Virus record (IMG/VR): IMGVR_UViG_3300023210_000015
Location: 1 to 64,000 of that record
From: a virus
Direction: 5' to 3' (one strand)
DNA: 64,000 bases
Below, piece by piece: positions 18,788 through 20,732 of this stretch. The notes beneath the pieces are model-generated. The model had not been told where the DNA came from and searched no databases. It worked only from the letters and a program-made list of their open reading frames with translations. How positions within the stretch are numbered: the stretch's first letter is position 1; each line of letters opens with the position of its first letter. The position numbers and the translations under genes were made by a program.

Positions 18788-18893
18788 TATTATATTTTCG
18801 GAAATTAATAATTTTTATCGTATATAGAATTTTTTTTTTAAAGGAAAGTTGTAATTTCTACCGAACAGAACTATAATGGCTTGGAGAAGAATT

Positions 18894-19004
18894 ATGATAA
18901 AGAATTATGATAATACGATTAACACTGAAAAGGATGCTCATCCTAATGTAATCGCTCTATCTTTATCACTCCTGTCATCATCGCTATCTAGTTTGTGTCT
19001 CTGA
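18894..19004 (+). CDS. Leu/Ser/Cys-rich leader peptide MIKNYDNTINTEKDAHPNVIALSLSLLSSSLSSLCL* (not in the ORF track)
   Basis: GGAG RBS at 18883 and upstream promoter elements; the last 15 sense codons are exclusively Leu, Ser or Cys. Confidence 0.8.
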   Translation: MIKNYDNTINTEKDAHPNVIALSLSLLSSSLSSLCL

Positions 19005-19033
19005 GACACGGACCTCGATGGATAGTCCTTTTT
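18979..19033 (+). promoter_or_regulatory. Attenuator: antiterminator over the leader stop versus terminator GGAC...GTCC-TTTTT
   Basis: GTTTGTGTCT(18991-19000)/AGACACGGAC(19004-19013) competes with GGAC(19010-13)/GTCC(19025-28) followed by T5. Confidence 0.6.
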
Positions 19034-19059
19034 GCTTTATCCCGATGTTCTGTGTTTCC

Positions 19060-19073
19060 GCTTTTTGACAATT
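19060..19073 (+). promoter_or_regulatory. boxA-like antitermination element
   Basis: GCTTTTTGACAATT matches the rrn boxA region GCTCTTTAACAATT at 12/14 positions, just before the first tRNA. Confidence 0.5.
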
Positions 19074-19090
19074 AAATATGCTCAAAATAC

Positions 19091-19165
19091 GCTCTCGTAG
19101 GCTAACTGGCATAAGCCGCAGATTTCAAACGTCTGTGTTTGTGGGTTCGACTCCCACCGAGAGTA
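19091..19165 (+). tRNA. tRNA-Leu(CAA), short variable loop
   Basis: GCTCTCG/CGAGAGT acceptor; CAGAT-TTCAAAC-GTCTG; GTGGG-TTCGACT-CCCAC. Confidence 0.85.
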
Positions 19166-19168
19166 TGA

Positions 19169-19244
19169 GCCTGGGTAGGCTAATTGGCATTGCCGGTTGA
19201 TTTAAAATCAGCGACGTATGCGAGTTCGAATCTCGCTCCAGGCA
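19169..19244 (+). tRNA. tRNA-Leu(TAA), short variable loop
   Basis: GCCTGGG/TCCAGGC; GTTGA-TTTAAAA-TCAGC; GCGAG-TTCGAAT-CTCGC. Confidence 0.85.
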
Positions 19245-19250
19245 GTTAAA

Positions 19251-19333
19251 GCGGTTGTGGCGGAACGGTAGACGCGTCAGATTGAGAGTCTGGTAGGTGA
19301 AAGCCTGTGGAGGTTCGAATCCTCTCAGCCGCA
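19251..19333 (+). tRNA. tRNA-Leu(GAG)
   Basis: GCGGTTG/CAGCCGC; TCAGA-TTGAGAG-TCTGG; long variable arm. Confidence 0.9.
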
Positions 19334-19354
19334 TTGTATAACAAGGAGAATAAA

Positions 19355-20051
19355 ATGAATAAACAGAAAGGCTGTCTTTGATGTTTTATTGGAAGTTCAG
19401 TTTGGCGAAGGCGGAAAGGACTCGAAACTGTTTGTAGGTGATTTGTTTGCAGCATATGCTAGATATGCTATCGCTAATAAATTGAAAATTGAAAAGTTGT
19501 ATGATGGAGATGGATATATTTCTGCTAAAATTACTGGTAGAAATTCTTGGAATCTGTTTGAGAACGAAGCTGGTAAGCATTGCGTCCAGCGTATCCCTCC
19601 GACAGAATCGAAAGGAAGAAGGCATACTTCCATTATAACTGTTGCTGTAATCAAAATGGATTTAGATTTGCCATTGATTAATTTGTCAGATATTGAGTTT
19701 AAAACGCAGGGTGGCCATGGAAAAGGTGGGCAGCATCAAAATAAAACTGATTCTGCTGTTAGAGCTAAACATAAGGTGACGAAAATCGAAGTTTTCATTA
19801 ATGGAAGAAGTCAACACCAGAATAAACAGAATGCCTTGCGGATATTGACGGCCAAGGTTAATAACCACTATGATAAGAAAAGGCGTGAAAGAGTTCGCCA
19901 AGATATACAAAAGCATAGAGGCGGTGGAGGTAGAGGAAACAAAATACGCACTTATAACTTTATTGCATCAAGAGTCGTTGACCATCGTTCTGGTCTAAAA
20001 ACAAGACAAATTGAAAAAATAATGAAGGGCAGATTCGATCTGTTAAAATAA
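19355..20051 (+). CDS. RF1-type peptide chain release factor lacking domain 1, expressed via a +1 frameshift at CTT-TGA (19376-19381)
   Basis: AGGAGA RBS then ATG 19355 MNKQKGCL*; the +1 frame continues DVLLEVQFGEGG...; PxT motif QRIPPTESKGRRHTS, GGQHQNKTDSAVR, KIRTYNF...RVVDHR. Confidence 0.85.
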
Positions 20052-20287
20052 TGGGTAAGAAAAAGAAAAATGATAATCAGCGTAGAGAATACGAAACAAA
20101 ACATTATGTAATATATTATCTTCCCATCACGGGAGAAATTATTATTAGACCCAAAAAAAGAAGTATATTTGGGATGCTTAATGATCATCATGATTATATC
20201 AATCATTGTGGACTTTGTGGTCAAAGGGTAAAGCTTTTTATGACTAAGAATAAATCTGTGATTTGTGAGCATTGTAAAAAAGATTGA
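20051..20287 (+). CDS. Small zinc-ribbon hypothetical protein
   Basis: CGLC...CEHC; TAATG coupling to the RF gene. Confidence 0.55.
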   Translation: MGKKKKNDNQRREYETKHYVIYYLPITGEIIIRPKKRSIFGMLNDHHDYINHCGLCGQRVKLFMTKNKSVICEHCKKD

Positions 20288-20292
20288 TAACT

Positions 20293-20382
20293 GGAGAGTA
20301 GCCGAATATTGGTTTGTCGGGTCTGATTGCTAATCAGATTGGCCTCTAAAGGGTCATGAGGGTTCGATTCCCTTGCTCTCCG
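20293..20382 (+). tRNA. tRNA-Ser(GCT)
   Basis: GGAGAGT/GCTCTCC; TCTGA-TTGCTAA-TCAGA; long variable arm. Confidence 0.9.
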
Positions 20383-20390
20383 TCATGTAC

Positions 20391-20462
20391 GGCTAGTTGG
20401 TGAAGTGGAAACATCGGAGTCTGCAAAACTCTGAAGCGAGGGTTCGATTCCCTCACTAGCCT
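20391..20462 (+). tRNA. tRNA-Cys(GCA)
   Basis: GGCTAGT/ACTAGCC with U73; GGAGT-CTGCAAA-ACTCT. Confidence 0.9.
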
Positions 20463-20467
20463 GTTTT

Positions 20468-20554
20468 GGATGCGTGGCAGAGTCTGGTTTATCGCGCCAT
20501 CTTGGAAAGGTGGTTGGCCTTCGGGTCACATAGGTTCAAATCCTATCGCATCCG
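20468..20554 (+). tRNA. tRNA-Ser(GGA)
   Basis: GGATGCG/CGCATCC; CCATC-TTGGAAA-GGTGG; long variable arm. Confidence 0.9.
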
Positions 20555-20560
20555 TTTAGT

Positions 20561-20647
20561 GGAGGGTAGTGGGGATAGGTTCCCCGACCAGCGTTGAACA
20601 CTGGACCAGCGTGATGAGCGTTGACGGTTCGAATCCGTTACCCTCCT
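20561..20647 (+). tRNA. Atypical tRNA-Ser(TGA)
   Basis: GGAGGGT/ACCCTCC; long D stem GGGGA/TCCCC; loop GTTGAAC; U discriminator. Confidence 0.75.
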
Positions 20648-20651
20648 TTGT

Positions 20652-20732
20652 GGAAGGCAGCAGGGAATGGTCCCTAACTGGCGTCGAATACCAGGCCAAC
20701 TACGGTTGCCGGTTCGATTCCGGTACCTTCCT
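20652..20732 (+). tRNA. Atypical tRNA-Ser(CGA)
   Basis: GGAAGG/CCTTCC; D stem AGGGA/TCCCT with a 4-nt loop; loop GTCGAAT; U discriminator. Confidence 0.75.

What the first reader, a model, noticed from the sequence alone, without database searches (positions are those of the whole stretch)
18840..20732. Codon-matched leader-peptide attenuator controlling a phage Leu/Ser/Cys tRNA array
Seen: an unannotated 36-codon ORF (18894-19004, GGAG RBS) ends in 15 consecutive codons CTA TCT TTA TCA CTC CTG TCA TCA TCG CTA TCT AGT TTG TGT CTC, then TGA. These are only Leu, Ser and Cys, spread over many synonymous codons. The downstream array holds only Leu(CAA, TAA, GAG), Ser(GCT, GGA, TGA, CGA) and Cys(GCA) tRNAs, and each of the eight has a cognate codon in that run (TTG, TTA, CTC, AGT, TCT, TCA, TCG, TGT). 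A hairpin spanning the stop (18991-19013, extendable by CATCG/CGATG or CTATC/GATAG) is mutually exclusive with a GGAC..GTCC-T5 terminator (19010-19033). Established: this is the logic of amino-acid operon attenuators such as trp, his and leu. Inference: here the output is tRNA rather than biosynthetic enzymes. The phage would sense loss of any of these isoacceptors (starvation, or host anticodon-nuclease defence) by ribosome stalling and switch on its replacement tRNAs. I know of no described phage tRNA operon controlled this way.
Basis: partly seen in the sequence, partly recalled or inferred. Interest (0 to 1): 0.95.

Follow-up and report, generated by a model that had tools for sequence, protein, structure and literature searches.

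The report
Leader-peptide gate on phage tRNA operon
A tiny gene whose last 15 codons spell only leucine, serine and cysteine sits, with a two-state RNA hairpin switch, directly in front of a giant marine phage's operon that holds only Leu, Ser and Cys tRNA genes, so the phage probably tunes its spare tRNAs by how fast ribosomes read those very codons, a trp-operon-style control I could not find published for tRNA genes.

Summary
The 36-codon ORF (18894-19004, GGAG 7 nt upstream) ends in 15 codons that are only Leu, Ser or Cys. This is the longest such run outside simple repeats in all six frames of the 109-kb phage record (P about 2e-7 per site even at local base composition). It lies 87 nt upstream of a tightly packed operon with only Leu x3, Ser x4-5 and Cys tRNAs, plus a frameshift-gated RF1-like gene and a small zinc-ribbon ORF.

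In an unrelated gut-phage family and in a 60%-GC phage, small ORFs ahead of tRNA blocks are spelled in the amino acids of those blocks and co-vary with them. The gut-phage cases have textbook antiterminator/terminator folds. This scan has noted the same class before on other genomes (e.g. e1-5618024, e1-5381190). I found no published account.

This instance is weaker in three ways. No relatives of the leader were found. The real structures are two mutually exclusive, near-isoenergetic hairpins, each followed by U5, and I could not resolve their on/off logic. Verdict: a probable leader-peptide regulator of a tRNA operon (about 0.6), a new variant of a known kind.

The parts
18849..18877 (+). 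sigma70-like promoter, TTGTAA-17 nt-TATAAT (-10 at 18872-18877)
   Evidence: It is one of only two TTG[TA][AC]A-N16-18-TATAAT sites in the 109-kb record. The other (25864) also precedes an SD and a short ORF ahead of tRNA-like genes.
18883..18886 (+). Shine-Dalgarno GGAG, 7 nt before the ATG and only about 6 nt after the -10
   Evidence: Read directly. Inferred caveat: the transcript 5' end may lie at or just before the SD.
18894..19004 (+). leader ORF, 36 codons, MIKNYDNTINTEKDAHPNVIALSLSLLSSSLSSLCL, stop TGA
   Evidence: The 42-aa in-frame form has no homologue among 5.8 billion proteins.
18957..19001 (+). codon-matched run, 15 codons of Leu, Ser or Cys only
18983..19026 (+). hairpin A: 5' arm is the last 6-7 run codons, stop codon in the loop
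   Evidence: -18.0 kcal/mol, z -3.7, 1 of 200 shuffles as stable.
19029..19033 (+). U-tract 1 (T5), 2 nt after hairpin A
19003..19058 (+). hairpin B, shares 19003-19026 with hairpin A (mutually exclusive)
   Evidence: -19.0 kcal/mol, z -4.5, 0 of 200 shuffles as stable.
19062..19066 (+). U-tract 2 (T5), 3 nt after hairpin B
19091..19165 (+). tRNA-Leu(CAA), 75 nt, short variable arm
19169..19244 (+). tRNA-Leu(TAA), 76 nt, short variable arm
19251..19333 (+). tRNA-Leu(GAG)
19355..20051 (+). RF1-like gene lacking domain 1. ATG at 19355, CTT TGA at 19376-19381, RF homology continues in the +1 frame
   Evidence: best NCBIfam match prfA, 203 bits, below the cut-off.
20051..20287 (+). 78-aa CxxC...CxxC ORF, start overlaps the RF stop (TAATG)
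20292..20384 (+). tRNA-Ser(GCT)
20391..20462 (+). tRNA-Cys(GCA)
20467..20555 (+). tRNA-Ser(GGA)
20561..20647 (+). tRNA-Ser(TGA)
20652..20732 (+). marginal tRNA-Ser(CGA)-like gene
   Evidence: Found only at a relaxed ARAGORN threshold. Rfam E 0.19.
20732..20737 (+). T6 run after the last tRNA T-arm and acceptor: likely end of the operon
   Evidence: Terminator-like site 20707-20725 plus tail. Spacers inside the operon are only 3-21 nt.

Best explanation
The stretch 18849-19090 is a ribosome-mediated leader-peptide regulator of one transcription unit.

Layout of the unit: promoter, leader, RNA switch, tRNA-Leu x3, RF1-like gene, zinc-ribbon ORF, tRNA-Ser/Cys/Ser/Ser/(Ser), T6.

Proposed mechanism (all steps inferred from sequence):
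- Host RNA polymerase starts at the sigma70-like promoter.
- A ribosome translates the 36-codon leader. Its speed through the 15 Leu/Ser/Cys codons reports how well exactly those codons can be decoded, by host tRNAs plus the phage's own tRNAs.
- The tail of the run is the 5' arm of hairpin A, with the stop codon in its loop.
- The partner strand (19003-19026) can pair instead with 19037-19058 to form hairpin B. So ribosome position decides which of two near-isoenergetic folds forms as the polymerase crosses two U5 tracts.

My preferred reading: hairpin A plus U5 is the stop or pause element. A ribosome held on the last 9-10 run codons hides its 5' arm, so transcription runs on into the tRNA genes. 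Those codons include a cognate codon for seven, arguably all eight, of the operon's tRNAs. As phage tRNAs accumulate the leader is read quickly and output falls, which is negative feedback.

Shown: the ORF, the run, its match to the operon, the two alternative hairpins, and parallel codon-matched leaders in other phages.

Inferred: translation of the leader, termination at either U-tract, and the direction of the response.
For: 1. The run is far beyond chance and specific to one frame.
2. The operon behind it contains only Leu, Ser and Cys tRNAs. It is packed with 3-21 nt spacers and ends in T6, so the leader's amino-acid set equals the operon's tRNA set. The leader matches its own set at 29.6 bits, against 4-8 bits for the sets of other arrays.
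3. Hairpins A and B are each much more stable than shuffles (z -3.7 and -4.5). They are mutually exclusive and near-isoenergetic.
4. Region 19035-19058 pairs with the same partner strand but is non-coding, and it is not L/S/C-only in any frame. RNA pairing alone therefore does not force the coding pattern (read).
5. Only two strong sigma70-like promoters of this form exist in 109 kb. Both are followed at +6 by an SD and a short ORF ahead of tRNA(-like) genes.
6. Independent lineages show the same thing:
- Gut-phage locus L047. The leader run LLNKWNNLNKLWCNLCNLGC uses each of the six Leu codons once. It lies ahead of Lys, six Leu tRNAs with all six anticodons, Asn x2, Trp and Cys.
- Its homologue in L134/L089 has gained Gln codons and lost Cys and CTA codons. 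Its array has a Gln tRNA and lacks Cys and Leu(TAG).
- A second leader, SFNEYSYESEFSSYERSF, precedes Glu, Phe, Tyr, Glu, Ser, Ser.
- These leaders are followed by strong terminators (z about -5). Under ribosome masking in the run, the terminator's 5' arm pairs with an upstream antiterminator strand.
- The 60%-GC phage L197/L201 has four compact leaders that end 9-25 nt before matching blocks.
7. Over 73 blocks, 8 score at least 12 bits against their own set. With sets swapped the mean is 1.1 and the maximum 4 in 200 permutations.
8. Earlier notes of this scan report the same class in other genomes. These are leads, not support.
Against: - No homologue of this leader or its switch was found, so nothing shows conservation here. 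The nearest RF-linked relative, L149, has Leu/Cys tRNAs without a leader. Other seawater runs hold only identical copies.
- Neither U-tract is preceded by a canonical terminator, and the scan flags none.
- The 91-nt fold as a whole is only z -1.7.
- With any simple model, stalls at the first five run codons and at the last ten give opposite predictions (and my reasoning). The direction of regulation is therefore unresolved.
- The SD lies about 6 nt after the -10, so the 5' UTR would be very short.
- Three of the 15 codons lack a cognate tRNA in the operon, and the eighth tRNA is marginal.
- Many phage tRNA arrays have no such leaders: T5-like Vibrio phage Hades and most RF-linked marine arrays.
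Confidence: 0.6

Rival explanations
1. Same sensor, different effector: Rho-dependent (tnaC-like) attenuation. The C-rich, G-poor run acts as a Rho loading site when it is bare. Any ribosome stalled on it blocks Rho, so transcription continues. Hairpins A and B with their U5 tracts act mainly as pause sites.
For: - The run has 13 C against 5 G in 45 nt, with many YC dimers.
- This model gives the same output for a stall at any of the 15 codons, which the hairpin-only models do not.
- Neither U-tract has a canonical terminator.
Against: - The C-rich tract is only about 47 nt, shorter than typical Rho loading sites (my knowledge).
- The host, and whether it uses Rho here, are unknown.
- The significant bistable A/B pair is not needed by this model.
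- The gut-phage examples use intrinsic terminators.
Confidence: 0.12
2. Coupling sensor with the opposite sign (pyrBI-like). A ribosome following the polymerase closely to the stop codon prevents hairpin A, so the operon is on. Slow or absent translation lets A (or B) form and stops transcription. The phage would then make tRNAs and the RF-like protein only while translation is running well.
For: - The stop codon lies in the loop of hairpin A, and a ribosome at codons 29-36 abolishes A in the masked folds.
- Stalls at codons 22-26 leave A intact.
Against: - It does not explain why the run is spelled only in the operon's own amino acids.
- It does not explain why the other lineages have classical stall-to-antiterminator geometry.
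- Positive feedback on tRNA supply has no obvious use.
Confidence: 0.1
3. No regulatory link. The ORF is an unrelated small hydrophobic-tailed peptide gene, or is untranslated. On this reading the hairpins are just the structured 5' leader of a tRNA precursor (processing or stability), and the match of the run to the tRNA set is a coincidence.
For: - No homologues.
- No RNA data.
- Non-canonical terminators.
- The tail VIALSLSLLSSSLSSLCL could pass for a weak membrane anchor.
Against: - The run's probability is about 1e-7 or less. Its amino-acid set equals that of the operon out of 1140 possible three-residue sets.
- Fifteen residues of only L, S and C are atypical for membrane helices.
- The same pattern recurs in unrelated phages with co-variation.
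Confidence: 0.13

Closest known systems
Leader-peptide transcription attenuators of enterobacterial amino-acid operons (trpL, hisL, leuL, pheL; multivalent thr and ilvGMEDA leaders). From established knowledge; reviewed in PMC1183508.
   Same: - A short translated ORF with a run of regulatory codons.
- Alternative RNA hairpins read out by ribosome position.
- U-tracts downstream.
- Stop codon in a hairpin loop, as in trpL.
- Several amino acids sensed at once, as in the ilv and thr leaders.
   Different: - The output is tRNA genes (plus an RF-like gene), not biosynthetic enzymes.
- The sensed quantity includes the operon's own products, which gives direct feedback.
- It is carried by a phage.
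- Only three strands (A/B) are seen here rather than four, and the codon run overlaps a hairpin arm.
pheM leader of pheST (phenylalanyl-tRNA synthetase) in E. coli. From my own knowledge, not checked here.
   Same: Leader-peptide attenuation is applied to a gene of the translation apparatus that serves the codons in the leader.
   Different: It controls a synthetase, not tRNAs. It senses one amino acid. It is cellular, not viral.
T-box riboswitches
   Same: Same purpose: gene expression is coupled to the state of a specific tRNA through terminator and antiterminator folds.
   Different: A T-box binds uncharged tRNA directly and needs no translation. No T-box or other Rfam cis-regulator is found in 17000-23000 at E <= 1.
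pyrBI/pyrE coupling attenuators and tnaC (from my own knowledge)
   Same: The geometry is compact: the ribosome itself occludes a terminator hairpin or a Rho site next to the leader's stop codon.
   Different: Those sense UTP-dependent polymerase pausing or free tryptophan, not decoding of a set of codons.
Inducible trn tRNA array of Anabaena sp. PCC 7120 (PMC8421152, PMC10272220)
   Same: A supernumerary tRNA array that is switched on when translation is impaired.
   Different: Control is by the repressor TrcR acting on direct repeats in the promoter. Neither paper contains the words leader or attenuat-.
Codon-matched leaders before phage tRNA blocks noted earlier in this scan (e1-5618024, e1-5381190, e1-5989972, e1-5836933 and others). 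Unpublished AI notes.
   Same: The same architecture and the same reading, in other genomes.
   Different: Those are different phages with no sequence relation to this leader. This instance is compact, and its switch logic is less clear.

Membership tests
Ribosome-mediated leader-peptide transcription attenuator | Promoter followed by a short ORF with a ribosome-binding site in the 5' leader of the operon | tested here: met
   TTGTAA-17-TATAAT at 18849-18877, GGAG at 18883, ATG at 18894, 36 codons.
Ribosome-mediated leader-peptide transcription attenuator | Run of regulatory codons cognate to what the operon supplies | tested here: met
   15 of 15 codons are Leu, Ser or Cys, and the operon holds only Leu, Ser and Cys tRNAs. 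12 of 15 codons have a cognate tRNA there.
Ribosome-mediated leader-peptide transcription attenuator | Intrinsic terminator between the leader ORF and the first structural gene | tested here: inconclusive
There are two hairpin-plus-U5 candidates (A with 19029-33, B with 19062-66). Neither meets the consensus scan.
Ribosome-mediated leader-peptide transcription attenuator | Mutually exclusive alternative structures, one overlapping the translated region | tested here: met
   Hairpins A and B share 19003-19026. Energies are -18.0 and -19.0 kcal/mol, z -3.7 and -4.5. The 5' arm of A is run codons 31-36.
Ribosome-mediated leader-peptide transcription attenuator | A stall at the regulatory codons shifts the fold to the read-through form | tested here: inconclusive
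   In masked folds, stalls at codons 29-36 abolish A but stalls at codons 22-26 do not, and B can then form. In the gut-phage leaders L047 and L134b the classical shift is reproduced.
Ribosome-mediated leader-peptide transcription attenuator | Leader is translated, and premature 3' ends respond to tRNA or amino-acid supply | not testable with these tools
   No RNA run holds the stretch. This needs Term-seq, toeprinting or reporter fusions.
Codon-matched leaders of phage tRNA blocks (class seen in this scan, unpublished) | Leader amino-acid content co-varies with the downstream tRNA set across related and unrelated phages | tested here: met
   L047 against L134/L089; the second leader in L134/L136/L064/L065; four blocks in L197/L201; permutation control. 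This was not testable for the window's own leader, which has no relatives.
T-box riboswitch | Specifier loop and T-box motif recognisable by the Rfam model | tested here: not met
   No T-box hit at E <= 1 in 17000-23000.

The most novel reading that the evidence does not exclude
Large phages run their tRNA blocks as self-tuning 'decoding-capacity' circuits. Each block is gated by a mini-gene written in that block's codons, so a shortage of any of those tRNAs (codon-usage mismatch, starvation, or host tRNA-cleaving defence) is sensed directly by the ribosome and answered with exactly the matching replacement tRNAs. In this phage the Leu/Ser/Cys circuit also carries a domain-1-less RF1-like factor that itself needs a +1 slip at UGA. 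The whole unit would then be a translation-emergency operon with two ribosome-read gates.
Probability: 0.4. Interest if true: 0.9.

Novelty: new variant of a known kind. Interest (0 to 1): 0.8.

Why it matters
Why phages carry tRNA genes, and how they control them, is still debated: codon-usage matching, sustaining translation late in infection, or escape from tRNA-cleaving defences.

A leader-peptide gate would mean that the tRNA genes are demand-driven and auto-regulated rather than constitutive. It would also extend attenuation, a mechanism known for amino-acid and synthetase operons, to tRNA genes and to viruses.

The leaders could serve as a sequence-only read-out of which tRNAs a phage treats as one regulatory unit. 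The natural variants found here give ready-made test cases: the gut-phage leaders whose Cys, Gln and Leu(CTA) codons change together with the array.

The finding is not unique to this window. The scan has noted the class repeatedly, and this window adds a compact marine example linked to a frameshift-gated release-factor-like gene.

Tried and rejected
- No RNA holder is listed for the stretch.
- Read laying on four seawater DNA runs showed only identical copies of the leader, so there is no population variation to analyse.
- BLAST against 50,697 phage records gave tRNA-only hits and no relative.
- An exact tRNA 3'-end pattern found no relatives of the window, but led by chance to L047.
- Neighbours of the radical-SAM gene have no tRNAs.
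- RF-like relatives in viral and metagenome contigs, at most 62% identical, show no homologous leader.
- The promoter-SD module pattern hit three unrelated ordinary genes.
- Protein searches with the 42-aa form of the leader, and with the L047 leader, found nothing but the query itself. The 36-aa form was too short to search.
- False positives of my block-matching scan were rejected on inspection. LDKLKK in L009/L172 is the C-terminus of an HNH gene. CGGKGG in L017/L209 is the GGQ region of the RF-like gene. The L179, L189 and L206 hits lack a start codon or lie in out-of-frame coding DNA.
- T5-like Vibrio phage Hades has small ORFs before its tRNA blocks, but none is matched to them.
- The gut-phage family has no cultured relative in the phage collection.
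- A pseudo-tRNA origin for the run was considered and dropped, because ARAGORN and Rfam find nothing at 18950-19040.
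Full report
**What the window is.** The window is the first 64 kb of a 109-kb IMG/VR virus record. 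The record is estimated to be about 23% complete, so this is a phage of several hundred kb. Its GC content is 36.5%, and it is found in many seawater metagenomes. The finding lies in a 300-nt gap between a minus-strand radical-SAM gene (17501-18787) and a plus-strand tRNA cluster.

**Checking the observation.**
- The ORF is as described. GGAG is at 18883-86, ATG at 18894, there are 36 codons, and TGA is at 19002-04. The last 15 codons read LSLSLLSSSLSSLCL.
- Across all six frames of the 109-kb record, L/S/C runs fall off geometrically: length 6, 23 times; 7, 8 times; 8, twice; 9, once.
- The only longer runs are three simple-repeat artefacts, one Ser-rich low-complexity tract, and this run.
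- The per-site probability is 2.6e-11 at genome composition and 2e-7 at the local T/C-rich composition. None of 300,000 shuffles of the 45 nt is L/S/C-only in frame.
- Read directly, the other two frames of the same DNA are not L/S/C-only.
- ARAGORN finds seven tRNAs in 19091-20647: Leu CAA, TAA and GAG; Ser GCT, GGA and TGA; Cys GCA.
- The eighth, Ser(CGA) at 20652-20732, appears only at a relaxed threshold and has stem mismatches.
- Codon diversity is not unusual in itself (P=0.25). Rare codons are somewhat enriched (6 of 15, P=0.012) relative to the phage's own genes.

**The unit behind the leader.**
- Spacers between the elements are 3, 6, 21, -1, 4, 6, 4, 5 and 4 nt.
- The order is Leu, Leu, Leu, an RF1-like gene, a zinc-ribbon ORF, then Ser, Cys, Ser, Ser, (Ser).
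- A T6 run follows the last tRNA.
- There is no room for internal promoters. The Gln tRNAs further on lie behind another ORF.
- The leader's three amino acids are therefore exactly the tRNA set of one compact operon.
- The leader's best segment scores 29.6 bits against its own set and 4-8 bits against the sets of three other arrays.

**Promoter.**
- TTGTAA-17-TATAAT lies at 18849-18877.
- In the whole record only two sites fit TTG[TA][AC]A-N16-18-TATAAT. They are this one and 25864.
- Both are followed about 6 nt later by an SD and a short ORF ahead of tRNA(-like) genes.
- That argues for a shared module. It also means the 5' UTR would be very short, which is a caveat.

**RNA structure.**
The proposed GGAC/GTCC-T5 terminator is not distinguishable from shuffles (-5.5 kcal/mol, z -0.6).
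- The better-supported elements are hairpin A (18983-19026; -18.0; z -3.7) and hairpin B (19003-19058; -19.0; z -4.5). They share 19003-19026 and so exclude each other.
- Each is followed after 2-3 nt by U5.
- The 5' arm of A is the end of the codon run, and the stop codon is in its loop.
- Strand 19035-19058 pairs with the same partner, is non-coding, and is not L/S/C-only in any frame. Pairing constraints alone therefore do not explain the coding pattern.
- In masked folds, a ribosome at codons 29-36 removes A, while one at codons 22-26 does not. With A removed, B can form.
- I could not find a simple model in which all 15 codons give the same output.
- The last nine codons do contain a cognate codon for seven, arguably all eight, of the tRNAs. 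That favours 'A plus U5 is the stop or pause, and a stalled ribosome hides its arm'.
- A Rho or tnaC-like variant would remove the geometric problem, but it is speculative.

**Comparative test.** I found no relatives of this leader. The class, however, is well supported on other DNA.

1. *Gut-phage locus L047, reached by chance through a tRNA pattern.*
- It has a consensus promoter, an SD and a 40-codon ORF.
- Codons 5-24 of that ORF are LLNKWNNLNKLWCNLCNLGC. All six Leu codons are used once each.
- A strong terminator follows, and then Lys, Leu x6 (all six anticodons), Asn x2, Trp and Cys.

2. *Its homologue in L089/L134/L136.*
- The peptide is MFATMMNKQNKWQELWSNLYLLGN...
- It has gained Gln codons and lost Cys and CTA codons.
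- Its array has Gln(TTG) and lacks Cys and Leu(TAG).

3. *A second leader in the same phages.*
- A second promoter-leader-terminator, with the run SFNEYSYESEFSSYERSF, lies 450 nt ahead of Glu, Phe, Tyr, Glu, Ser, Ser.
- Variants occur in L064 and L065.

4. *Folding of the gut-phage leaders.*
- They fold as textbook attenuators.
- Without a ribosome, the run pairs with strand 2 and the terminator forms.
- With a ribosome in the run, strand 2 pairs with the terminator's 5' arm (13-16 bp).

5. *The 60%-GC phage L197/L201.*
- It has four compact leaders that end 9-25 nt before matching blocks (Tyr/Ser; Glu/Asp/Arg; Met/Ala/Gly/Phe/Val...; Leu/Pro/Gln/His/Asn/Lys).
- Whole-ORF binomial tails are 2e-4 to 4e-3.
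- The run codons themselves form hairpins, as in the window.

6. *Permutation control.* Over 73 non-redundant blocks, 8 reach 12 bits against their own set. With sets swapped the mean is 1.1 and the maximum 4 in 200 permutations.

The feature is not universal. A T5-like Vibrio phage and most RF-linked marine arrays lack it.

**Prior knowledge.**
- Six full-text searches found no account of leader-peptide control of tRNA genes, in phages or in cells.
- The nearest published case is the inducible trn array of Anabaena. It is governed by the repressor TrcR through promoter repeats (PMC8421152, PMC10272220).
- Within this scan the same class has been noted and followed up on several other genomes. 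I treat those notes as leads only.
- The independent evidence in this report is my own analysis of L047/L134 and L197/L201.

**Verdict.**
It is not right in its structural detail.
- The sign and the effector of the switch in this compact instance remain open.
- I put about 0.6 on a ribosome-read regulator that raises operon output when Leu, Ser or Cys codons are decoded slowly.
- About 0.2 goes to variants with another effector or the opposite sign.
- About 0.13 goes to no regulatory link.
- The mechanism is a new variant of leader-peptide attenuation. It is of high interest, although it is no longer a first sighting within this scan.

Noticed in passing
window 19355-20051: The release-factor-like gene starts at ATG 19355 behind AAGGAG, then runs into CTT TGA at 19376-81. 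RF homology (LEVQFGEGG... GGQ) continues in the +1 frame, which is the prfB frameshift signal. The protein itself is RF1-like (PPT motif; best NCBIfam match prfA, below the cut-off) and lacks domain 1. It is noted elsewhere in the scan (e1-6018145, e1-5402992).
   Followed up: partly
window 19091-19244; L047 6539-7095: tRNA-Leu(CAA) and tRNA-Leu(TAA) are only 75-76 nt and have no long variable arm. Four of the six Leu tRNAs in the unrelated L047 array are also 76-78 nt. Class-I-shaped Leu tRNAs seem to recur in phage arrays.
   Followed up: no
window 25864-26090: A second module has the same rare promoter form and spacing. It comprises an SD, an 18-codon ORF MFRNYTNDYEYTKGLIAA (three Tyr codons), a hairpin whose 5' arm is the ORF tail and stop codon (25949-26013, -20 kcal/mol, z -3.5), and a hairpin plus U5 (26027-26087, z -3.0), all ahead of Tyr-anticodon tRNA-like genes. 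The codon match is weak on its own (e1-6018147).
   Followed up: partly
L197 3442-7325 and L201 6049-6150: A 60%-GC phage has four isotype-sorted tRNA blocks. Each is preceded by a 15-27-codon ORF that ends 9-25 nt before the first tRNA and is enriched in the block's amino acids. In block 2 the Arg codons form both arms of a perfect 13-bp hairpin that ends at the stop codon.
   Followed up: partly
L134 3926-4147: In the gut-phage family a small XRE-type helix-turn-helix gene sits between the second leader's terminator and the Glu/Phe/Tyr/Ser tRNA block, so it would be co-regulated with the tRNAs.
   Followed up: no
loci L009-L041, L149, L151, L172, L197, L201: Short RF-like genes (PCRF plus RF-1 domains, about 220 aa) lie inside or next to tRNA arrays in many large phages from different habitats. 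The protein search reported 7906 proteins at E <= 0.001.
   Followed up: partly
L056-L106, about 4380-4560: About 50 relatives of the gut-phage family carry a lone tRNA-Leu(CAA) at the position where L047 has its 11-tRNA array. In L056, the one locus I read, it has a TATAAT box but no leader ORF.
   Followed up: partly
window 16479-17483: An ORF begins with a (Thr-Lys)x10 repeat. Its antisense strand produces the long SLSL and LCLC runs that top the L/S/C scan.
   Followed up: no
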